Source: a virus. From it: a stretch of 6,285 nt of DNA. Position numbers and translations under genes: made by a program. Of this stretch, positions 1 through 6,285 are shown piece by piece. Numbering within the stretch: position 1 is the first letter of the stretch; each line of letters opens with the position of its first letter. Location: positions 1 through 6,285 of the IMG/VR virus record IMGVR_UViG_3300045988_009338; one strand, given 5' to 3'. Below the pieces are notes generated by a model. That model did no database searches, was not told the DNA's origin, and saw only the letters and a program-made list of their open reading frames with translations.

Positions 1-421
1 TTTTATTTGCTTCGGCTTCGTTTTTACTGGCTTGGCTTTCGTTAAGTTTGATTTGACTTAGTGCATTTGCCATTTCTATTCCGATTTCCTGTGCTCTTAG
101 ACCCATTCCTACGGATTGGTCTTGAGGTAGCCCTACTCCGTTTGCTACTCCTGCTCCTTGTGTCGAGCCTCCTTGTCCTCCCATTCCATAAATTAGCCCC
201 GGACTTAGTCCTGCTTCTTTTATGTGTTTCATTTGGTTTTCAAAGTTGGTGTAATTCCACATTTCTTTCGCTTGTGCTGTATTGAACTTGGCGTTTTTTT
301 GATTCAGTTCAGCTTGTATTTCCATTAGCTGGTGTTGTCTTTGCCAGCTTTGGTTACTTGCACTGTTTGCATTGAGTGCTCCCATTAGAGCTCCTCCTAT
401 TCCCATTATTGCTCCTATCAT
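1..421 (-). CDS. VP2 minor capsid / DNA pilot protein, N-terminal 140 codons. The CDS continues across the circular junction into 6208..5592, giving 345 aa in total.
   Basis: Hand translation of the - strand from the ATG at 421-419 is open all the way to base 1. It reads MIGAIMGIGGALMGALNANSASNQSWQRQHQLMEIQAELNQKNAKFNTAQAKEMWNYTNFENQMKHIKEAGLSPGLIYGMGGQGGSTQGAGVANGVGLPQDQSVGMGLRAQEIGIE and then MANALSQ..., which is the start of track ORF 5592..6281. An in-frame TAA at 430-428 lies just upstream, so 421 is the first available ATG. The combined length is 421+617 = 1038 nt = 345 codons plus stop. A Gly-rich N-terminus, a ...GL(S/N)P.L.YG... motif and a long coiled-coil C-terminal half are typical of Microviridae VP2/H-like pilot proteins. 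The ORF track missed this part because it runs off the window edge. Confidence 0.85.
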   Translation of the reverse strand, partial: MIGAIMGIGGALMGALNANSASNQSWQRQHQLMEIQAELNQKNAKFNTAQAKEMWNYTNFENQMKHIKEAGLSPGLIYGMGGQGGSTQGAGVANGVGLPQDQSVGMGLRAQEIGIEMANALSQIKLNESQASKNEAEANK

Positions 422-438
422 AATTGTTTACATTTTCG

Positions 439-458
439 CGCTTTGATGTTTCAAAGCG
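439..458. repeat. Perfect 8-bp stem / 4-nt loop hairpin (cgctttga tgtt tcaaagcg) in the VP3-VP2 intergenic region
   Basis: Positions 439-446 pair perfectly with 451-458, leaving loop 447-450. It lies 18 nt upstream (gene sense) of the VP2 ATG at 421. Function is unknown. Confidence 0.8.
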
Positions 459-469
459 ATATTCATATT

Positions 470-481
470 ACTTGATATTAA
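470..481 (+). other. 12-nt identity (ACTTGATATTAA) to the phiX174 gene-A-protein origin core, located on the strand antisense to the genes
   Basis: The window has acttgatattaa at 470-481. From memory, the phiX174 30-nt origin is CAACTTG/ATATTAATAACACTATAGACCAC with the nick between G and A. The match sits in an intergenic region immediately beside the large hairpin at 483-555. The strand is opposite to what is expected for a Microviridae viral-strand origin, so this may be chance in AT-rich DNA. Confidence 0.2.
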
Positions 482-482
482 A

Positions 483-555
483 TTGTAGGTGCGTACTTTC
501 GTGTATTGTCCGGTAATTAAACCGGACAATACTCCGAAGTGCTTGTTACCTACAA
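483..555. repeat. Extended imperfect stem-loop (~73 nt) with a perfect 12-bp apical inverted repeat. It is a candidate terminator or ssDNA replication/priming signal.
   Basis: The apical stem 503-514 (gtattgtccggt) pairs perfectly with 521-532 (accggacaatac), leaving loop aattaa. The basal stem 483-490 (ttgtaggt) pairs perfectly with 548-555 (acctacaa). The middle section pairs 491-492/541-542, 495-498/537-540 and 500-501/535-536, with small bulges. In gene sense the stem is followed by UUUAAUAU. Confidence 0.85.
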
Positions 556-582
556 GGCTTTGAAAATACCTTTTCAAACAGT

Positions 583-900
583 TTAGTTTTCACTTGGTGA
601 CCCTCCGTCTGTTTTATTAGGTACATTCCCGAAATCTTCCGGTTTTGGTGCCATTTCTTTTTTTGCTGCATTTCTTGTGATTTTGTCATAGGCATCCATT
701 GCAATATCGAATCTGTCTGTACGGATATTGTATGCCGGTAGTACTCCGTCTTCTTTTGCCGTATAGATTATTGGTGCGGTGTCTGTGATTGGTTCACCGC
801 TTTCTAGTACTCTTGCGCATTTTGTTTCAATGCTTTCTCCTTCATATATTTCTACGGATTCTAGTCTTCCGTTGTTTTTTGTTGGTTTTGAATATTTCAT
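583..900 (-). CDS. Small conserved virion-assembly protein, VP3-like (putative internal scaffolding protein), 105 aa from the ATG at 900
   Basis: This is track ORF 583..939. I prefer the second Met (MKYSKPTKNN..., ATG 900-898) because the first 13 codons overlap the VP1 stop (914-916). The product is acidic. The motif ...PIIYTAKEDGVLPAYNIRTDRFDIA... resembles, from memory only, a block conserved in small proteins next to VP1 in gut Microviridae. The product name is an inference from size and position. Confidence 0.65.
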   Translation of the reverse strand: MKYSKPTKNNGRLESVEIYEGESIETKCARVLESGEPITDTAPIIYTAKEDGVLPAYNIRTDRFDIAMDAYDKITRNAAKKEMAPKPEDFGNVPNKTDGGSPSEN

Positions 901-913
901 AATGTTATAATTT

Positions 914-2845
914 TTATAGATTAGGAATTTGTTTTGCACTGATTAGACGTCTTACTTTGATGTCAAACTTTGTTTGTACCCAAAAGTTCATGGCATCTAG
1001 ATTTGTGTCAGCAAATATATAATTGAATTTTACCGGGTCGATATAGGTTGTCAGGTCCTCTATCTGTCCGTTTGTTGCCATTGAATAATTGCGGTTGAGT
1101 ACCATAAAACTTTCCGGCATTTCTGGTGCGAAGTTTCCAAACGTTCTGTTTACGTTTGTCATGTAGTTTATCCAGGCCACCGTCTTTCCGGCTGCTGTTT
1201 TTTGTAATGAGCCACTTTCACTTATATAATCTGTCCACCATGCTCTTTCCCCGTTTAATGAATCTTGATATCCGATTCCGTCGAGTGCCGGTTTATGCCA
1301 ATCGTTCATGGTTTTTAGGTAGGTATCCCATGTGTTGCCTTGTCCGTAGTCGATGCGTGGTGTGATTGAGCATATACACATTATATAACATGGTTCTGTC
1401 ACCTTTATTCGGATGTGTCCGCCTTTTTGACGTCCCGTTGTTACGCCTCTTCCTGCCAGTGTTCCTAATGGCTCGTTTTCGCTTGCACTGTTGCTTATTA
1501 CTTCCTGGAATACGATTTCCTGGCTTACACCTCCTTCAAACATCGGTGTTTCGCATCTCTCCATGTAATTGCCTCCTGTATATACTGTTTCCAGCCAGTC
1601 TCTGTAAGTACCTCCGCTTACTGCAATTCTGTTTAGGAAATTGTATACTTTTTGTGACAGGTTCAAAGCGTCCATTGATAGTTTGCCGTCTGATACATCT
1701 ACCGCGCTTGCTTCATTGATTCCGTTCGTACCTTCTATCCATTCGGTGTTTATCCAGTTTTGATACAAGTCACTGTTATATGTTTTTAGACATAGTCCGA
1801 ATTGTGGATTAGTTGTGTTTAGGTCCTTTTGAGGCGTTCTTTTTGCGAAGTCTGTGAATGGTGGTATACTCATTGATTCGTTTGATATATCGAATTCTAC
1901 GTCTCCCGGAGTTAGTAATATTTTATCTCTGATTATATCCAGATTTTCTAGCAGATACGATTTTAGAGATGTTCTTTTTGTCGAGTATACTGCCGTTATA
2001 TACCATGTTTGCCCGGATGGTATTTTGCTTACTGCTATTTCTGCTTCGTCTATTTGGATACTGAAACTTCCTATTTGTGATGGAATCATTGTTTGTTCCC
2101 TCGCGTTTGCGGATGTTTTGACCCTTAGTAGTATTTCGTTTTCTTTAACTGTTTCCGGTGTTATCGTTATTGTTTTTCCGTTTGTTACCTCTCCTATGTT
2201 TAATGGTATATTGTCGGGATCTGGTATTGGCTTGCTGTTTATTACTACCGATAATTTTGGAGAATCTCCAATCATGTAGAAATTTTCTTCCTGTGTGTTT
2301 GCGTAGTAGTTTTTGAATATATCAAAATATGTTAGTATAGGTAGTGCGTTTTTGCCTATTCCTTTGTCTCCTGATGCCTTTGGATTCGCGTATCCTCTTA
2401 TCCCCAGATATGCTAGCAGGCAACTTGGATTTACTTGTTTCCATTGTTCTTCATCGTTTGACGGAAAGTCCCATAGTTGGTTTAGTTTTACTCTTATTTG
2501 AGGTAGTCTTACTTGTTCCATATTCAGCCCGATTTTTGTCCGGTTGTTGTGCAGCCAGCTGTTGTACAGTCTTACCGGCCCTGTATATACGTGATGCTCT
2601 AGTTTGAATGAGCCGAACAATGGTCCTGTTGTTGGATGTGTAAGTACGTTTGAATCAATGTCAATGTCGAACGTATCTCCTTTTTGCGCTACTAGGCATA
2701 GGTTCGGAACTAGTGTTCCCGGACTTTGTGTATTTCTTACGATTGTTGATAAATCGTGTGTCGACATGTTGTAATCATGTAGACTTACGGACATTTTATT
2801 ATTATCTCCTATGGTGTTTTTACCGATATTTTTTCTTATTCCCAT
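914..2845 (-). CDS. VP1 major capsid protein (Microviridae F-like jelly-roll capsid), 643 aa
   Basis: This is the longest ORF. The N-terminal pattern HDLS..(10)..G.L.P......GD.F.I....(T.P..GP..G.F)...H.Y..PVRL...W matches the conserved Microviridae VP1 N-terminal signature (FDLS...G.L.P...GD.F...P.R..W). The C-terminus ends ...QIPNL. A GGAGG lies 8 nt upstream of the ATG at 2845. The size (643 aa) is larger than phiX F and typical gokushovirus VP1, and closer to alpavirus-type capsids; that last point is an inference. Confidence 0.93.
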   Translation of the reverse strand: MGIRKNIGKNTIGDNNKMSVSLHDYNMSTHDLSTIVRNTQSPGTLVPNLCLVAQKGDTFDIDIDSNVLTHPTTGPLFGSFKLEHHVYTGPVRLYNSWLHNNRTKIGLNMEQVRLPQIRVKLNQLWDFPSNDEEQWKQVNPSCLLAYLGIRGYANPKASGDKGIGKNALPILTYFDIFKNYYANTQEENFYMIGDSPKLSVVINSKPIPDPDNIPLNIGEVTNGKTITITPETVKENEILLRVKTSANAREQTMIPSQIGSFSIQIDEAEIAVSKIPSGQTWYITAVYSTKRTSLKSYLLENLDIIRDKILLTPGDVEFDISNESMSIPPFTDFAKRTPQKDLNTTNPQFGLCLKTYNSDLYQNWINTEWIEGTNGINEASAVDVSDGKLSMDALNLSQKVYNFLNRIAVSGGTYRDWLETVYTGGNYMERCETPMFEGGVSQEIVFQEVISNSASENEPLGTLAGRGVTTGRQKGGHIRIKVTEPCYIMCICSITPRIDYGQGNTWDTYLKTMNDWHKPALDGIGYQDSLNGERAWWTDYISESGSLQKTAAGKTVAWINYMTNVNRTFGNFAPEMPESFMVLNRNYSMATNGQIEDLTTYIDPVKFNYIFADTNLDAMNFWVQTKFDIKVRRLISAKQIPNL

Positions 2846-2848
2846 GGC

Positions 2849-3115
2849 TTATTCCTCCTTTTTAGAATTGTTAGTATATTTTTTTGCAGAGCGTTTGAGT
2901 TTTTTCTCGTATTCGTCTGCTTCTTTGCATGCATATATCATCGATGCAACTAGATTCCAATCTGTGGAGTTGATTCTTTCTTCTGCTGCTTCACGCGTTG
3001 GAAACTTTTCTGTTGTTGCTAAATGTTTTCCAATTACAATCATGTATTCCTTTTCCTCTTGTGTTGTTGGTAACACTTTGAATACATCTTTCATGTCATT
3101 AAATTCTATTTCCAT
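2849..3115 (-). CDS. Hypothetical protein, 88 aa, acidic core with a Lys-rich tail
   Basis: This is a track ORF. It is co-oriented and tightly packed: its stop is 3 nt before the VP1 ATG and its start is 2 nt after the stop of the upstream ORF. I recognise no family. Confidence 0.6.
   Translation of the reverse strand: MEIEFNDMKDVFKVLPTTQEEKEYMIVIGKHLATTEKFPTREAAEERINSTDWNLVASMIYACKEADEYEKKLKRSAKKYTNNSKKEE
2852..2860 (-). promoter_or_regulatory. Shine-Dalgarno-like ribosome-binding site for VP1
   Basis: The gene-sense sequence is AAGGAGGAATAAGCC-ATG, with the GGAGG at 2858-2854 and an 8-nt spacer to the ATG at 2845. It overlaps the last codons (KKEE*) of the upstream ORF. Confidence 0.6.
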
Positions 3116-3117
3116 TT

Positions 3118-3324
3118 TTAATAGTTTTTAGGATTAATATTGGTTTTTACACTATCAACGTTTGCCGTTGCTTTCTGTTCCGTCTGTTGCGTTGCATTGT
3201 TGTTGTTTTTCGCTATGCTCATACTCATTGTACACGACTGTACACATAAGGTCGTAATTATAGCAATGATTGCCGTAGATATAGCCCGAATAATTTCTAC
3301 CCATTGGTTCCCGGTTATTTTCAT
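3118..3324 (-). CDS. Small membrane-anchored or secreted protein, 68 aa. It is a candidate lysis or exclusion factor.
   Basis: This is a track ORF. It has one N-terminal hydrophobic segment (AISTAIIAIITTLCV) after a short charged N-region. That is followed by Cys residues (TTLC, VQSC) that loosely resemble a lipobox, then a polar N/Q/T-rich tail. It is tightly packed between neighbouring ORFs. Confidence 0.6.
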   Translation of the reverse strand: MKITGNQWVEIIRAISTAIIAIITTLCVQSCTMSMSIAKNNNNATQQTEQKATANVDSVKTNINPKNY

Positions 3325-4094: not shown

Positions 4095-4274
4095 ATCATT
4101 TTTCTTTTTTTTATTTCAAAAATCAAGATTTATTTTTTTCTTTTTGTTAAAAGAATTCTAAGTTTTTATATTTACCTCCTTTCTTATTGACACTACAAGT
4201 ATAATTGTTTTTTTTGTTTCTACAAAATTTTCTGATATTTATCTTTTGTTTTTAACTTTAATTAGCAATAGTAT

Positions 4275-4287
4275 CTTTAAGCCTCCG
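4275..4287. repeat. Copy 2 of the 13-nt exact direct repeat, ctttaagcctccg
   Basis: It is identical to 3794-3806. It sits exactly at the boundary between the AT-rich tract and the GC-rich element, and has no local hairpin partner here. Confidence 0.9.
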
Positions 4288-4548
4288 TGGCGTTTGAACG
4301 GTGATAGGGTAATAGGGAGCGCATAGCTCCCCTTAGCGTCTAGCACCTTAGTATCGGCGAAGCCGCACACCACAACCTCCGGTTGGGTGCACGTCACTCC
4401 CTTATCCTGGTCTTAAGGTAGCTGTCTCCCGGATTAAGGCGTATCTCACCCTCCCGTTATACACCCTTGGCCGCCCGGCCTTGAGGTGCTGAATACAAAG
4501 TAGTTTGATTGAAACACAGTTGTGCTGCTGGCTGTGCCGTAGCGCAGC
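4281..4548 (-). ncRNA. Candidate structured non-coding element (unclassified ncRNA, or an ssDNA complementary-strand origin / priming structure)
   Basis: No ORF appears in any frame in the track. By my hand count, GC is about 58% over 4281-4490, against about 22% over 3961-4260. There are multiple local hairpins. These include 4315-4320/4326-4331 (gggagc/gctccc) and 4365-4377/4381-4390 (10 bp with bulges). They also include 4469-4472/4477-4480 nested in 4462-4465/4485-4488, 4515-4519/4532-4536, and 4524-4528/4544-4548. Long-range complementarity is also present. One case is 4342-4348 (agcacct) with 4484-4490 (aggtgct). Another is 4297-4301 plus 4306-4310 with 4454-4458 plus 4448-4452. On the gene-sense strand GGGAG occurs 4 times and GGAGG 3 times. 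The strand is assigned only from co-orientation with all genes and the packaged strand. No family was recognised. Confidence 0.45.
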
Positions 4549-5589
4549 TTATGTGTAGGAATGGCTGTTATAATATATATTGGCGAATAAATCAATGTCG
4601 TTATTGAATCGATTTTGATTTCTTTCTTCTTTTCTCTTTTCCTTCTCGGCGACCATAGTCGCTTTAGATTCTTTCCATTGTCTTTGTTTTCTTAGCCTGT
4701 TAAGATATTTCCTTTTATTCCAATCTTCCGGATTGTCGTGATATAATCTTTCACAACGTTCTCTTTCACTTATGAGTACGCCCATATATCTTGTTTCTTC
4801 GGTATTTAGGTCTATTTTTATTCCTAGTACGTATACAATTCCTTTTTCGATTTTGTCCAGGAATAGTTTTTCACGTTCTTCTTCTGTAAATAGTTTGTTT
4901 CTGTAATAAATTGGCAGGTTGAGTTTGCCGCCGTTTCTCATCCGGTATGATTCGTTTGTTTTACCTGGTATATATACATGCCTTTTGGCATCCTCTCGCT
5001 TGAGGTATCCTGCTCCTATTCCTGCCGAACAAAGTACCTTTCCTCTGAATTTTGGGTGCTTTTCGTCAATTTTTAGCATGTATTTTGTAATATAGTTGAT
5101 TGTTTTTTCGTTTACGAAATATCCGGTGAATGTGATTCCGTATTTCCAGTTGTCCGTTATTTTTTTGCCGTTACCTAGGCCCCAAACTATTCCGTGGAGA
5201 TGCAGTCTTTCTGTTTTTTCGTGTCCTAGTTCTGTAATAAACCAGTGTTTTACGGATTTTCCGGTTAATTTTCGTACTCTTTCTAGACACAGTCTTATAG
5301 CTTTTGTCGCGATGTCATTATTGTCTTTTAACTTGTATTTTTTGCTTATTTGTTTGTATGATTTATCATCGATTGTCAGTGTTAGAAAATAGGCGTTTGG
5401 TGTTTGCCTGTTTTCTTCTGACATTCTTACTACCCATTGTCTTTGTTTTTGTTTCCTGCACTCATAACAGTCTCCGCATGCTGCCGTTACATAACGTAAT
5501 CTTTCATCCGGACAAATAGGCGGTACCCCGCCATTTTTTTTTGTTGGCAGGTACCGCTTGTTTGGTATGAGTTTAGGATATAGACACAT
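4549..5589 (-). CDS. VP4 replication initiation protein (HUH-superfamily rolling-circle endonuclease, phiX gpA-like), 346 aa
   Basis: All three RCR motifs were verified in the DNA. Motif I is FLTLT (codons at 5388-5374). Motif II is HLHGIV (5202-5185). Motif III is YITKY, with two Tyr spaced as in the phiX A protein Y-x-x-K-Y (5094-5080). The N-terminus has a Cys cluster (C2, C26, CGDCYEC), typical of microvirus VP4. The ATG lies 2 nt after the VP2 stop. Confidence 0.93.
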   Translation of the reverse strand: MCLYPKLIPNKRYLPTKKNGGVPPICPDERLRYVTAACGDCYECRKQKQRQWVVRMSEENRQTPNAYFLTLTIDDKSYKQISKKYKLKDNNDIATKAIRLCLERVRKLTGKSVKHWFITELGHEKTERLHLHGIVWGLGNGKKITDNWKYGITFTGYFVNEKTINYITKYMLKIDEKHPKFRGKVLCSAGIGAGYLKREDAKRHVYIPGKTNESYRMRNGGKLNLPIYYRNKLFTEEEREKLFLDKIEKGIVYVLGIKIDLNTEETRYMGVLISERERCERLYHDNPEDWNKRKYLNRLRKQRQWKESKATMVAEKEKRKEERNQNRFNNDIDLFANIYYNSHSYT

Positions 5590-5591
5590 AA

Positions 5592-6285
5592 TTATTGAAA
5601 ACCTGTTTTACCTACTTTTGCTCCTAGTGCTGCTCCTGCTCCTTTTGAAGCTATTTCGAGCATTCCTAGTATAATGTCCTTGACGAGCTTTTGTTCTTCG
5701 ATGTCTAGGCCTTTTTTACCTAGTTCGTATCTGTTTATTACGTTCTGTGCATAGGCTTCCATCTGATCTCTTTGAACAATGAGCGCTTTTCCTTCTTTAA
5801 CAAGTTTTTCCCATCCTTGTAGTATTTCTGCTGGAATTGCTTTTGCTTGTTCTTCGTTGACTCTTTTTTGGCTTCCTTTAAGTAATATTTCGGCCATTAG
5901 ATTTTGAAGCGTTAGGGCACTTTCTTTAACTTTGTTTTCAAGTGTTCTTCTTTTAAGGTCGTTGTCAAGTTCTGCTCCATCAATTTCCGCAGCTAGTTTG
6001 TCAATTCCCTTTTGTAGGCTTTTGACGTTCCAGCGCGTTTCTTCAGTTTTTTCTTTTGTCCAGTCGGCCATATTTCTTTTTAGTTCTTCTTCGGCATCTG
6101 CTACTCTGATTTGTCCTAATAGCAGTCCTCGTCTTATTTTTTCATTTGAGGTCTGTGCTATCAGGTTGTCGATGGTAGCTTGTTGTGCTTCTGTATCTAC
6201 GCCTTTGATTTTATTTGCTTCGGCTTCGTTTTTACTGGCTTGGCTTTCGTTAAGTTTGATTTGACTTAGTGCATTTGCCATTTCT
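5592..6285 (-). CDS. VP2 minor capsid / DNA pilot protein, C-terminal part (229 aa in the track). It is 5'-truncated by the window end and continues upstream at 421..78 via the circular junction.
   Basis: This is track ORF 5592..6281. The Met at 6281 is internal, equal to position 73 in the duplicated end. The sequence is coiled-coil-like and E/K/Q/L-rich, with a Gly/Ala-rich C-terminus (ASKGAGAALGAKVGKTGFQ). See feature 1..421. Confidence 0.85.
   Translation of the reverse strand, partial: EMANALSQIKLNESQASKNEAEANKIKGVDTEAQQATIDNLIAQTSNEKIRRGLLLGQIRVADAEEELKRNMADWTKEKTEETRWNVKSLQKGIDKLAAEIDGAELDNDLKRRTLENKVKESALTLQNLMAEILLKGSQKRVNEEQAKAIPAEILQGWEKLVKEGKALIVQRDQMEAYAQNVINRYELGKKGLDIEEQKLVKDIILGMLEIASKGAGAALGAKVGKTGFQ
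6209..6285. repeat. 77-nt terminal redundancy (identical to 1-77), marking a circular genome of 6,208 nt
   Basis: Base-by-base comparison shows that 1-77 and 6209-6285 are identical, and both are bounded by the window ends. Reading frames are continuous across the junction: VP2 stays open. The length of 77 is what an assembler k-mer overlap would give; that reading is an inference. Confidence 0.97.

What the first reader, a model, noticed from the sequence alone, without database searches (positions are those of the whole stretch)
4281..4548. Compositionally foreign, ORF-free, hairpin-dense ~270-nt GC-rich element directly 3' of the replication-initiator gene
A 6.2-kb microvirus is under strong packaging constraint, yet 454 nt (7% of the genome) between the VP4 stop and the next ORF is non-coding. 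Its proximal 268 nt is unlike the rest of the genome. By hand count it is about 58% GC, against about 22% in the adjoining 300 nt and roughly 35-40% in coding regions, and the change at ~4280 is abrupt. It has no ORF in six frames. It contains at least five local stem-loops plus long-range complementary segments that could close a multi-branched domain: 4342-4348/4484-4490, and 4297-4310/4448-4458. On the gene-sense strand there are 4 GGGAG and 3 GGAGG motifs and three GAUAC motifs (the plus-strand gtatc copies start at 4271, 4351 and 4441). I could not match it to tRNA, tmRNA, RNase P, SRP, hammerhead or any riboswitch by eye. I see three possible explanations. (a) It is a novel phage-encoded structured ncRNA transcribed with, or after, VP4. 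(b) It is the ssDNA complementary-strand origin or primosome/RNAP-recruiting structure of the packaged strand, analogous to the G4/phiX/M13 minus-strand origins and plasmid sso elements. (c) It is a captured host fragment or recombination (att-like) site.
Basis: partly seen in the sequence, partly recalled or inferred. Interest (0 to 1): 0.8.

Follow-up and report, generated by a model that had tools for sequence, protein, structure and literature searches.

The report
Exchangeable single-strand replication-origin cassette in microviruses
The GC-rich stretch is a real, conserved, folded DNA element shared by unrelated gut microviruses; it always lies on the T-rich strand, probably starts second-strand synthesis, and hints that this phage packages the strand antisense to its genes.

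Summary
Window 4281-4548 is 56% GC against 22% in the flank. It is the GC-richest stretch of the genome and is non-coding. Folding energy is not better than shuffles (z about -1 to -1.5), but comparative evidence is strong. The full unit is 4269-4548. It belongs to a family of 38 distinct sequences, all from 4-6.6 kb microvirus-type contigs or records. The family has five to six covarying hairpins and an invariant unpaired motif, TAGCACCTTGATATCG. It has no Rfam, tRNA or bacterial-genome match.

The element is 83-87% identical between phages whose capsid and Rep proteins are 21-28% identical or of different Rep families, so it moves as a cassette. Its orientation relative to genes flips between lineages. 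In 31/31 genomes it lies on the T-rich strand, which is the mutational signature of the strand that exists as ssDNA. In the window that strand is antisense to all genes.

Relatives that lack the family carry unrelated GC-rich hairpin DNA in the same slot. They keep a second conserved site, window 421-583, which holds a phiX-origin-like ACTTGATATTAA.

Best reading: a complementary-strand origin, analogous to plasmid sso cassettes, acting in packaged ssDNA. Rivals are a Rep nick site, an ncRNA and a mobile element. The function is inferred, not shown.

The parts
4269..4548 (+). Whole element (about 280 nt). It is the unit of homology shared with unrelated microviruses. Its 3' end abuts the VP4 stop codon (4549-4551, minus strand).
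   Evidence: blastn of the window against class B genomes L016, L082 and L010 gives 4269-4548 as the strongest match by far (76-83% over 281-283 nt); the only other hit is a weak 169-210-nt one at 3098-3306. The CM core hit is 4278-4467 at 189.7 bits.
4281..4310 (+). Hairpin H0/H1. The inner stem CCGT 4285-4288 / ACGG 4298-4301 closes the loop GGCGTTTGA. The outer stem GCCT 4281-4284 / GGGT 4307-4310 is weaker.
   Evidence: The inner stem shows compensatory CG to GC and UA to CG changes. The outer stem is 85% paired, with mismatches in one subgroup.
4315..4331 (+). Hairpin H2: GGGAG / CTCCC with loop CGCATAG.
   Evidence: 4 of 5 pairs show double-sided changes (GC, AU, CG, UA).
4334..4339 (+). 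TAGCGT. It matches the 6-nt CS-6 consensus of plasmid ssoA origins, but sits in a junction rather than a hairpin loop.
   Evidence: Read from the sequence. The CS-6 sequence is taken from PMC4598088. A single 6-mer is weak evidence.
4341..4356 (+). The family's most conserved segment, apparently unpaired: TAGCACCTTAGTATCG in the window, TAGCACCTTGATATCG in the consensus. It resembles the phiX174 gene A nick site CAACTTG/ATAT.
   Evidence: The columns are invariant or nearly invariant. The phiX origin sequence was read from J02482. No pairing partner is shared by all subtypes.
4355..4365 (+). Hairpin H3: CGGC-GAA-GCCG.
   Evidence: 100% paired. The third pair varies as GC, CG and AU.
4368..4389 (+). 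Hairpin H4/H5: CACC-A-CAACC / GGTTG-GGTG, with an invariant bulged A at 4372.
   Evidence: 99.7% paired. 5 of 8 pairs show double-sided changes, and the apical extension varies in length.
4400..4418 (+). Hairpin H6': CCTTA / TAAGG. In this subtype an alternative longer pairing is possible, 4400-4407 with 4431-4439. It is followed by the conserved TAAGGTAGCTGTC (4414-4426).
   Evidence: 73-76% paired with little covariation, so this helix is tentative.
4447..4466 (+). Conserved pyrimidine-rich 3' motif CACCCTCCCGTTATACACCC, which marks the end of the core.
   Evidence: Alignments.
4462..4548 (+). Subtype-specific 3' extension. It contains the hairpin CACC..GGCC-GCCC-GGCC..GGTG (4462-4488) and the hairpin GCTGTGC-CGTA-GCGCAGC (4531-4548).
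   Evidence: DNA fold and subtype alignment. Other subtypes carry different hairpins here.
421..583 (+). Associated second non-coding site on the same T-rich strand. It holds a covarying hairpin (440-457), an unpaired ACTTGATATTAA (470-481; 12/12 match to the phiX174 origin core), TGCGTAC, a long hairpin (483-555) and a further hairpin (559-579). It is a candidate Rep nick origin.
   Evidence: DNA fold z = -7.8. Exact motif match. Conserved in the 19 class A genomes aligned (the motif is TACTAGATAT in OP549868) and in relatives that lack the GC-rich element.
4549..5589 (-). Replication initiator gene (VP4/Rep, 346 aa). Its stop codon abuts the element.
   Evidence: Pfam PF23343 REP_ORF2-G2P, E = 1.6e-10.

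Best explanation
The element is a cis-acting DNA structure that works in the single-stranded form of the phage genome. Most likely it is the complementary-strand origin: the site where host enzymes prime conversion of the incoming or displaced single strand to duplex DNA.

Proposed mechanism. Stable GC-rich hairpins (H1-H6) persist when the rest of the AT-rich strand is coated by SSB. They present an invariant unpaired segment (TAGCGT..CTAGCACCTTGATATCG) to a host RNA polymerase or primase, which lays down the primer.

Because only host factors are involved, the roughly 280-nt unit can be swapped between unrelated microviruses that share hosts, as sso cassettes are swapped among rolling-circle plasmids. 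It must always sit on the strand that becomes single-stranded.

Shown: family membership, covarying hairpins, cassette exchange, linkage of orientation to the T-rich strand, and replacement by non-homologous GC-rich hairpin DNA in relatives.

Inferred: that the T-rich strand is the packaged strand, that the function is priming, and which host enzyme acts.
For: (1) Conserved structure. There are 38 distinct members, and 90.2% of cells are paired against 32-42% when partners are slid. 17 of 30 pairs change on both sides. 164 compensatory cells are seen against 54 in shuffles (28-sequence version).

(2) Restricted to small microvirus-type sequences. Every confirmed member is a 4-6.6 kb microvirus-type contig or record, a shorter fragment, or one 10.5-kb foldback chimera. 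There is no hit in 185,579 bacterial and archaeal genomes and no Rfam or tRNA match.

(3) Orientation. In 31/31 genomes the element is single-copy and lies on the T-rich strand. Genes are on the opposite strand in 21 genomes and on the same strand in 10.

(4) The T-rich strand is the ssDNA signature. Four-fold sites on the sense strand are 56-74% T in class B. phiX174 (49-65%), Chp1, Chp2 and SpV4 are similar. In class A, including the window, they are 60-68% A, an exact mirror. NNT bias is attributed to C-to-T deamination of packaged ssDNA (PMC3278643).

(5) Cassette behaviour. The window core is 87% identical to that of L016. L016 belongs to the other Rep family, and blastn finds no other DNA similarity between the two genomes beyond one weak 169-nt hit in a small-ORF region. 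That weak hit aligns in gene-to-gene orientation, opposite to the element. L003/L271 and L270 share 85-86% element identity at about 25-27% capsid and 24-28% Rep identity.

(6) Slot replacement. Microvirus mar49 and bajarodmic virus 670 lack the family. At the same place they carry unrelated hairpin-rich non-coding DNA whose GC reaches 50-70% in 40-nt windows. Both keep the 421-583-type site.

(7) That second site is the better Rep-origin candidate. It is also conserved in more distant relatives, including a prophage, which leaves the priming role for the GC-rich slot.

(8) Known precedents. sso elements are about 160 nt, folded, orientation-dependent, variable in position, shuffled as cassettes and primed by RNA polymerase (PMC5703833). 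Conserved intergenic hairpins with compensatory changes have been proposed as minus-strand origins in other microviruses (PMC9865509).
Against: There is no experimental evidence of priming.

Folding energy of the single sequence is not better than shuffles.

The invariant motif resembles a Rep nick site rather than any known priming signal. In class B and in L270 it is the only CTTGATAT in non-coding DNA, so the element could be, or also be, the viral-strand origin there.

The excess of G.T over A.C in stems on the T-rich strand is expected from C-to-T mutation bias alone, so it is not independent proof of the folding strand.

The 31 genomes amount to only about three gene-level lineages plus a few transfer events, so 31/31 overstates the number of independent observations.

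The claim that the T-rich strand is the packaged strand is an inference from composition. phiMH2K, a cultured gokushovirus, also has an A-rich sense strand, and I do not know whether its virion polarity was measured.
Confidence: 0.5

Rival explanations
1. It is the viral-strand (Rep) origin, or a combined origin module. Rep nicks within CACCTTG/ATATCG, presented as an unpaired stretch between hairpins. The hairpins serve as Rep-binding or extrusion elements, as in the f1 intergenic region or a plasmid dso.
For: The family consensus CACCTTGATAT matches phiX174 CAACTTGATAT at 10/11 positions. ACCAC recurs at the same 30-nt spacing, giving 18/30 overall (hand alignment against the origin read). 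The motif is the most conserved part and has no universal pairing partner. It lies on the T-rich strand, as a nick site should. It is the only non-coding CTTGATAT in class B and L270.
Against: The element is shared at 83-87% identity by phages with different Rep families or about 24% Rep identity, which is unusual for an initiator-specific site. The two bases around the presumed nick vary (GA, AG, AA), as does the base two positions upstream (T or A), while the flanks stay invariant. The window itself matches only 8/11 positions. Class A has a separate AT-rich site that matches phiX better and persists in relatives lacking the element. Two cleavable sites on one strand would split the genome. 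The AT-rich spacer of the phiX origin is replaced here by a GC hairpin.
Confidence: 0.2
2. It is a structured non-coding RNA gene, or an RNA element within the phage transcripts, that acts on host or phage processes.
For: The covarying multi-hairpin architecture and conserved loops are typical of structured RNAs. In class B the element is co-oriented with the genes and would be transcribed.
Against: No Rfam family matches even at E <= 10, and no tRNA or tmRNA is found. In class A the conserved strand is antisense to every gene, and no promoter or terminator excess is seen. An RNA has no reason to follow the T-rich DNA strand in 31/31 genomes. Relatives replace it with unrelated GC-rich hairpin DNA at the same slot.
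Confidence: 0.1
3. It is a selfish or recombination-related DNA element. One possibility is a non-autonomous ssDNA transposon (an IS200/IS605-type PATE) that inserts its top strand into single-stranded targets. Another is a folded ssDNA attachment site of the CTX-phage type.
For: Horizontal spread, different insertion contexts (after Rep, after the pilot gene, after the capsid gene) and foreign GC content fit this reading. Strand-specific insertion into ssDNA would also explain the linkage to the T-rich strand. A related prophage has its dif-like att site in the same post-Rep slot.
Against: The conserved 28-nt pattern has no copy in 185,579 genomes. There is one copy per phage. The centre, not the ends, is most conserved, and the ends differ between subtypes. 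The element is held at the same place across class A genomes whose VP1 is only 46-70% identical, and internal hairpins are under purifying selection. No dif-like site is found in the element or in class A genomes. No integrated copy was found.
Confidence: 0.07
4. It is a transcription terminator or 3'-end stabiliser for the upstream gene's mRNA.
For: It always starts within a few bases of a stop codon in the gene-sense direction. GC-rich hairpins protect 3' ends.
Against: No hairpin-plus-T-run terminator is found on either strand. 280 nt with an invariant 16-nt unpaired motif is far more than a terminator needs. In class A the RNA would carry the reverse complement of what class B carries, yet the DNA strand is what is conserved.
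Confidence: 0.04

Closest known systems
Single-strand origins (ssoA/ssoU/ssoT/ssoW) of rolling-circle plasmids
   Same: Non-coding and a few hundred nt or less. Folds into a large multi-hairpin structure in ssDNA. Functional in only one orientation, on the displaced strand. Position relative to rep is flexible. Exchanged as cassettes between replicons with unrelated Rep proteins (PMC5703833). The element also contains the 6-mer TAGCGT, identical to CS-6.
   Different: No RSB-like sequence is present, and TAGCGT is not in a hairpin loop. There is no sequence homology. The host is a phage of probable Bacteroidales rather than a Gram-positive plasmid. Priming by RNA polymerase has not been shown.
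Complementary-strand origins of Bullavirinae (the phiX174 n'/PAS hairpin and the G4 oric hairpins) and the hairpins proposed for roodoodoo- and reekeekeeviruses
   Same: Intergenic, conserved hairpins on the packaged strand of a microvirus, with compensatory substitutions (PMC9865509; PMC5714925).
   Different: This element is much larger (about 190-nt core, 280 nt in all), with 5-6 hairpins and a 16-nt invariant unpaired motif. It is shared across microvirus lineages with different Rep families. It lies on the strand antisense to the genes in one lineage. Similarity to the G4 or phiX sites was not tested beyond the CM scan of phiX174, which was negative.
phiX174 viral-strand origin (the 30-bp gene A protein site, nick at G4305/A4306)
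   Same: The family consensus CACCTTGATAT...ACCAC resembles CAACTTGATAT...ACCAC at the same spacing, and lies on the strand inferred to be displaced.
   Different: A GC hairpin replaces the AT-rich spacer. The nick-flanking bases vary. The window has only 8/11 matches. A second, better match exists at 470-481.
Intergenic region of filamentous phage f1/M13
   Same: A compact structured non-coding module on the packaged strand whose orientation decides which strand is handled as ssDNA (own knowledge).
   Different: A packaging signal is not expected in microviruses. There is no homology. Whether both origins lie in this element is unknown.

Membership tests
Plasmid ssoA-type single-strand origin | Conserved RSB sequence (e.g. 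TTATGCCGAGAAAATTT) | tested here: not met
   Inspection of the alignments against the example sequence from PMC4598088 found no RSB-like sequence in the element.
Plasmid ssoA-type single-strand origin | CS-6 (TAGCGT) in the terminal loop of the main hairpin | tested here: inconclusive
   TAGCGT/TAGCGA is present at 4334-4339 and conserved in most subtypes. It lies in a junction 3' of H2, not in a loop. The tortoise subtype has AGAGCGT instead.
Plasmid ssoA-type single-strand origin | Works only in one orientation, on the strand that becomes single-stranded | tested here: inconclusive
   31/31 elements lie on the T-rich strand. That this strand is the single-stranded one is inferred from composition, not measured.
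Plasmid ssoA-type single-strand origin | RNA polymerase binds the folded ssDNA and makes a short primer | not testable with these tools
   This needs in vitro priming with host extract or purified RNAP.
phiX174-type viral-strand origin | Gene A recognition decamer CAACTTGATA on the nicked strand | tested here: inconclusive
   The family consensus matches 9/10 positions and the window 7/10. CAACTTGATAT with up to 2 mismatches does not hit the element in the window. A better match lies at 468-481.
phiX174-type viral-strand origin | AT-rich spacer following the nick site | tested here: not met
   The motif is followed by the GC hairpin CGGCGAAGCCG.
Any Rfam RNA family (4227 models), tRNA, tmRNA | Covariance-model match or ARAGORN call | tested here: not met
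   No match in 4269-4548 at E <= 10. No tRNA or tmRNA.
IS200/IS605-derived non-autonomous element (PATE) or other host-derived mobile DNA | Related copies in bacterial genomes and/or several copies per replicon | tested here: not met
   0 matches to the conserved 28-nt pattern in 185,579 species genomes. One copy per phage genome. Only that one exact pattern was searched.
Xer/dif-type attachment site | 28-bp dif-like core, found at prophage junctions | tested here: not met
   No dif-like match in the window with up to 9 substitutions. The related prophage L274 is flanked by dif-like repeats unrelated to the element and has no element.
The new family itself (covariance model R1) | Full-length CM match with hairpins H1-H5 and the TAGCACCTTRRTATCG motif | tested here: met
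   Window 4278-4467 scores 189.7 bits, E = 3e-62. The window was in the seed, so its match is by construction. Ten sequences outside the seed score 110-186 bits.

The most novel reading that the evidence does not exclude
The window's whole clade of gut microviruses may be negative-sense. This covers the window, Dulem virus 218, Tortoise microvirus 13, OP549868, mar49, bajarodmic 670 and a Paludibacteraceae prophage. Under this reading Rep nicks, and the capsid packages, the strand complementary to every gene.

The GC-rich element would then be a portable origin cassette that has moved between negative-sense and positive-sense microvirus families, landing each time on the strand that will be single-stranded. 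All microviruses are currently described as positive-sense, and complementary-strand genes are called highly unusual (PMC3394797).
Probability: 0.5. Interest if true: 0.85.

Novelty: new variant of a known kind. Interest (0 to 1): 0.72.

Why it matters
Microvirus non-coding DNA is almost unannotated. None of the roughly 30 public phage records with this element marks it, and one record calls a spurious protein over it.

If the reading is right, the element gives a sequence-and-structure model (R1) for finding complementary-strand origins in uncultured ssDNA phages. It would also show that cis-acting replication modules are exchanged between microvirus families said to exchange genes rarely, if ever (PMC9239249).

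Its fixed relation to the T-rich strand makes a textbook assumption directly testable: that all Microviridae package the coding strand. Polarity matters for how ssDNA viromes are prepared, quantified and strand-assigned. The cassette could also serve as an origin for ssDNA vectors in Bacteroidales.

Tried and rejected
- Rfam at E <= 10 and ARAGORN found nothing in the element.
- RNA and DNA MFE z-scores on both strands were uninformative, at -1.0 to -1.5.
- The sigma-70 promoter and terminator scan showed no excess. I also looked by eye for Bacteroidetes TTTG/TAnnTTTG promoters upstream and found only near-matches.
- The gapped pattern CGCACNCCAC..GGGYGCA in viral contigs gave mostly chance hits in large phage contigs. 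It was useful only after nhmmer filtering.
It yielded 7 further members (one identical to L026) plus the foldback contig L181.
- A pseudoknot between CACCTTGA (4345-4352) and TTAAGGT (4413-4419) was dropped. T-to-A changes in L082 and L139 are not compensated, and class B needs a bulge.
- I tested whether the 421-583 site is a dif-like att site, because one relative's version looked about 19/27 identical to E. coli dif by eye. This was rejected: the related prophage has its att repeats elsewhere and keeps the site internally.
- The conserved AATCTTGATAT inside VP1 of class B was checked as a hidden origin. It sits in a generally conserved coding stretch, so it is uninformative.
- Literature searches found nothing on negative-sense microviruses, strand skew in microviruses or gokushovirus origins.
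Full report
**What is in the window.** The window is a complete-looking microvirus genome with all large genes on the minus strand:
- major capsid gene VP1 at 914-2845;
- DNA pilot gene across the ends, 5592-6281 plus 1-421;
- replication initiator VP4/Rep at 4549-5589, which matches Pfam PF23343.

The nearest public record is Microviridae sp. PV067927, about 80% identical over 95% of the genome.

**The observation.** The stretch 4281-4548 is 56.0% GC. The adjoining 300 nt are 22.0% GC and the coding regions 37-40%. It is the GC-richest 268-nt window of the genome, 3.4 sd above the mean. Every reading frame has at least three stops inside it. The description is therefore accurate.

Folding energy is no better than dinucleotide shuffles on either strand. 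As RNA, z is -1.05 and -1.26; as DNA, z is -1.48 and -1.49. Rfam at E <= 10 and ARAGORN find nothing there.

**It is a conserved family.**
- blastn against 50,697 phage records finds the core in 21 microvirus records from primate, rodent, tortoise and human samples. Identity is 76-83% even where the rest of the genome is barely alignable.
- An exact-pattern scan of IMG/VR gives 21 further contigs, all 4-6.6 kb.
- nhmmer over everything fetched adds nine more hits. One is a duplicate and one is a 10.5-kb foldback chimera of the window's own sequence.
- The same pattern has no match in one genome from each of 185,579 bacterial and archaeal species.
- Two relatives that blastn had missed, Dulem virus 218 and Tortoise microvirus 13, do carry a divergent copy.
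- About 30 records in the phage collection have the element. None annotates it, and OP549868 has a 'hypothetical protein' called across it.

**It has a conserved secondary structure.** The family alignment shows obvious compensatory changes. I tested a hand-derived structure of six helices on 28 sequences and then on 38 distinct sequences aligned to a covariance model. The 38-sequence results (28-sequence version):

| Measure | Observed | Control |
|---|---|---|
| Cells forming standard pairs | 90.2% | 32-42% with 3' partners slid by 1-3 columns |
| Pairs with changes on both sides | 17 of 30 | 13.5 in shuffles |
| Compensatory cells | 164 | 54 in shuffles |

Support by helix, in window coordinates:
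- **Strongly supported:** H1 (4285-4288/4298-4301), H2 (4315-4319/4327-4331), H3 (4355-4358/4362-4365) and H4/H5 (4368-4377/4381-4389, with an invariant bulged A at 4372).
- **Weaker:** H0 (4281-4284/4307-4310) and H6' (4400-4404/4414-4418).

Between H2 and H3 lies the most conserved part of the family, TAGCGTCTAGCACCTTGATATCG. The window reads ...CCTTAGTATCG, at 4334-4356. No pairing partner for it is shared by all subtypes. The core ends with a conserved CCCTCCC..TATACACCC (4447-4466). The 3' extension to 4548 consists of subtype-specific hairpins. Ten sequences outside the seed score 110-186 bits with the model. phiX174, phiMH2K, SpV4 and four other microvirus contigs score nothing.

**The element flips relative to the genes and moves as a cassette.** The genomes fall into three groups:

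| Group | Genomes | Element position and orientation |
|---|---|---|
| Class A (window's lineage) | 21 | Conserved strand antisense to all genes; directly downstream of Rep |
| Class B | 9 | Same strand co-oriented with the genes; directly after the pilot gene |
| ON840045 (L270) | 1 | Same strand co-oriented with the genes; after the capsid gene |

.

The gene complements are very different. Class A and L270 have a 322-437-aa Rep family, whereas class B has an unrelated 443-556-aa Rep. Capsids are 21-27% identical between groups.

Element subtypes nevertheless cut across these groups. The window's core is 87% identical to that of class B genome L016. That is more than the 86% it shares with its own close relative PV067927. 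OP549868 (class A) and ON840045 share 85-86%.

Genome-wide blastn between the window and L016, L082 or L010 finds only two matches. One is 4269-4548, at 76-83% identity. The other is a weak 169-210-nt hit in a small-ORF region, aligned in the opposite relative orientation, that is, gene sense to gene sense. This defines the unit as 4269-4548. It also shows directly that the element is inverted relative to a homologous gene.

**The orientation follows the T-rich strand.** In 31 of 31 genomes the element is single-copy and its conserved strand is the T-rich strand.

Composition at four-fold degenerate sites of the large genes, read on the sense strand:

| Group | A | T |
|---|---|---|
| Class A, 20 genomes including the window | 60-68% | 10-17% |
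| Class B, 9 genomes | 11-16% | 56-74% |

The two classes are exact mirrors. The reference phages phiX174 (T 49-65%), Chp1 (66-71%), Chp2 (51-53%) and SpV4 (65%) look like class B. phiMH2K is A-rich like class A.

A preference for NNT codons is the published signature of ssDNA phages. It is attributed to C-to-T deamination of the strand that is single-stranded (PMC3278643). The simplest reading is that the element always sits on the strand that exists as ssDNA. In the window's lineage that strand is the complement of the coding strand.

I could find no report of this. Roux et al. state that complementary-strand genes are highly unusual in Microviridae (PMC3394797). The large taxonomy paper does not discuss strands or non-coding DNA (PMC9239249).

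Two caveats apply. The 31 genomes represent about three gene-level lineages plus a few transfers. Polarity is inferred from composition, not measured.

Stems show more G.T than A.C on the T-rich strand in both classes. In the reliable helices the counts are 28 against 4 in class A and 18 against 3 in class B. C-to-T bias alone would produce this, so it is consistent with folding on that strand but is not independent evidence.

**A second non-coding site, and a slot.** Searching for the phiX-like core turned up window 421-583, just upstream of the pilot gene and again on the T-rich strand. It contains:
- a hairpin (440-457) with compensatory changes across genomes;
- an unpaired TATTACTTGATATTAAAT, whose ACTTGATATTAA (470-481) matches the phiX174 origin core 12/12;
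- a conserved TGCGTAC;
- a long hairpin (483-555) and a further hairpin (559-579).

Its DNA fold has z = -7.8.

This site is conserved in the 19 class A genomes aligned (the motif is TACTAGATAT in OP549868). It is also conserved in more distant relatives that lack the GC-rich family: a Christensenellales-binned contig, a prophage in a 104-kb Paludibacteraceae contig, Microvirus mar49 and bajarodmic virus 670.

It is not the attachment site. The prophage is bounded by dif-like direct repeats 6.3 kb apart, downstream of Rep, and keeps the site internally.

Mar49 and bajarodmic 670 carry unrelated hairpin-rich non-coding DNA at exactly the position of the window's element. Its GC reaches 50-70% in 40-nt windows.

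So the clade has one constant site that looks like a Rep origin. It also has one slot downstream of Rep filled by interchangeable GC-rich hairpin cassettes. The window's family is one such cassette, also used by two other microvirus lineages.

**Mechanism.** This pattern matches rolling-circle plasmids. There the double-strand origin travels with Rep. The single-strand origin is a folded, orientation-dependent cassette of about 160 nt whose position varies, and it is shuffled between unrelated plasmids. It acts through host RNA polymerase (PMC5703833; PMC5714925). Conserved intergenic hairpins with compensatory changes have been proposed as minus-strand origins in other microviruses (PMC9865509).

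I therefore propose that 4269-4548 is the complementary-strand origin. GC-rich hairpins survive SSB coating of an otherwise 18-40% GC strand and present the invariant unpaired segment to the host priming enzyme. Dependence on host factors alone explains exchange between phages with different Reps.

The steps shown are the family, the structure, the cassette exchange, the strand linkage and the slot replacement. The steps inferred are packaging polarity, priming and the enzyme involved.

**Main rival.** The invariant motif may be a Rep nick site. The family consensus CACCTTGATAT matches phiX CAACTTGATAT at 10/11 positions. ACCAC recurs at the same 30-nt spacing. In class B and L270 it is the only non-coding CTTGATAT.

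Several points count against this:
- the motif is shared across Rep families;
- the bases flanking the presumed nick vary (GA, AG, AA);
- the window matches only 8/11 positions;
- a GC hairpin replaces the AT-rich spacer;
- class A has the better site at 470-481.

A combined module, as in the f1 intergenic region, is not excluded.

**Other rivals.**
- *A free ncRNA.* This is disfavoured by the lack of any Rfam match, the lack of promoter or terminator signals and the linkage to a DNA strand rather than to transcription.
- *A selfish ssDNA transposon or att site.* Either would also predict strand linkage. There are, however, no host-genome copies, one copy per phage, conservation that peaks in the centre, stable inheritance across a lineage whose VP1 is 46-70% identical, and no dif-like core.

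**Comparison with known families.**
- *ssoA.* The element works like an sso but is not a member of ssoA. RSB is absent, and the TAGCGT 6-mer is present but not in a loop.
- *phiX origin.* It is not a phiX-type origin by the AT-spacer criterion.
- *Rfam.* It belongs to no Rfam family.

I class it as a new variant of a known kind. It is a large, multi-hairpin microvirus origin cassette, transferable across lineages.

**Limits.**
- E-values from the short-calibrated model are rough.
- Only exact-pattern searches of bacterial genomes were possible.
- The host, probably Bacteroidales from the one prophage relative, is not established for the window itself.

Noticed in passing
window 421-583 (+): A second conserved structured non-coding region, upstream of the pilot gene on the T-rich strand. 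It has a covarying hairpin at 440-457, an unpaired ACTTGATATTAA (470-481; 12/12 match to the phiX174 origin core), TGCGTAC, and hairpins at 483-555 and 559-579. Its DNA fold z is -7.8. It is conserved well beyond the family of the GC-rich element and is a likely Rep nick origin.
   Followed up: partly
whole window; also L009-L029, L264, L265, L271-L275, L278, L279: The sense strand is extremely A-rich at four-fold degenerate sites (60-68% A, 10-17% T). This mirrors phiX174, Chp1, Chp2, SpV4 and the class B microviruses, which are 49-74% T. It suggests this clade packages the strand antisense to its genes. Whole-genome composition of the more distant relatives is A-rich in the same way.
   Followed up: partly
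L268 (Bdellovibrio phage phiMH2K, AF306496): This cultured gokushovirus also has an A-rich, G-poor sense strand at four-fold sites (A 38-51%, T 18-27%, G 5-7%), unlike Chp1, Chp2 and SpV4. Its virion polarity would be worth checking.
   Followed up: no
L181 (OGMX01001410.1, 10.5 kb), around 5160-5450: The contig follows the window's sequence through the element up to about window 4515. It then continues as the reverse complement of the window's upstream region (about 4215 backwards). This is a foldback chimera, probably an amplification or assembly artefact with its junction in the element's 3' extension.
   Followed up: partly
L274 (Paludibacteraceae MAG contig JAZREU010000025.1), 6524-12841: An integrated microvirus of about 6.3 kb (VP1 39% identical to the window's). 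It is flanked by direct repeats with a dif-like core (ATTTTACATAA-TTGCAA-TTAG) at 6524-6547 and 12818-12841. The att site occupies the post-Rep slot where the window has its GC-rich element.
   Followed up: partly
L278 4570-5035 and L279 4595-4925 (reverse strand): Microvirus mar49 and bajarodmic virus 670 carry unrelated hairpin-rich non-coding DNA, with GC of 50-70% in 40-nt windows, in the same post-Rep slot. The bajarodmic cassette also contains CTAGCACC next to a GCACC/GGTGC hairpin, so this short motif may recur in non-homologous cassettes.
   Followed up: no
window 4095-4268 (+): An extremely AT-rich (about 18% GC), T-tract-rich non-coding stretch lies between the element and the next gene. 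The sequence TTWTAAC..TTARC just 5' of the element is conserved within class A. Its function is unknown; it may hold a promoter for the downstream small genes.
   Followed up: no
L003/L271 (OP549868.1) 4566-4808: The public record annotates a 'hypothetical protein' CDS across the element. Given the covarying stems, and the stops in all frames of the window's copy, this call is probably spurious.
   Followed up: no
window 1261-1271 (+); class B VP1 genes (e.g. L266 1291-1304): AATCTTGATAT occurs inside the capsid gene on the T-rich strand in both classes. It is antisense to VP1 in class A and sense in class B, at non-homologous positions. This is probably a composition effect. In class B it lies in a generally conserved coding stretch.
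   Followed up: partly
window 3098-3306: Apart from the element, this is the only stretch with detectable nucleotide similarity to class B genomes (66-68% over 169-210 nt). It lies in the small-ORF region and aligns gene sense to gene sense, so a small gene may be shared between otherwise unrelated lineages.
   Followed up: no
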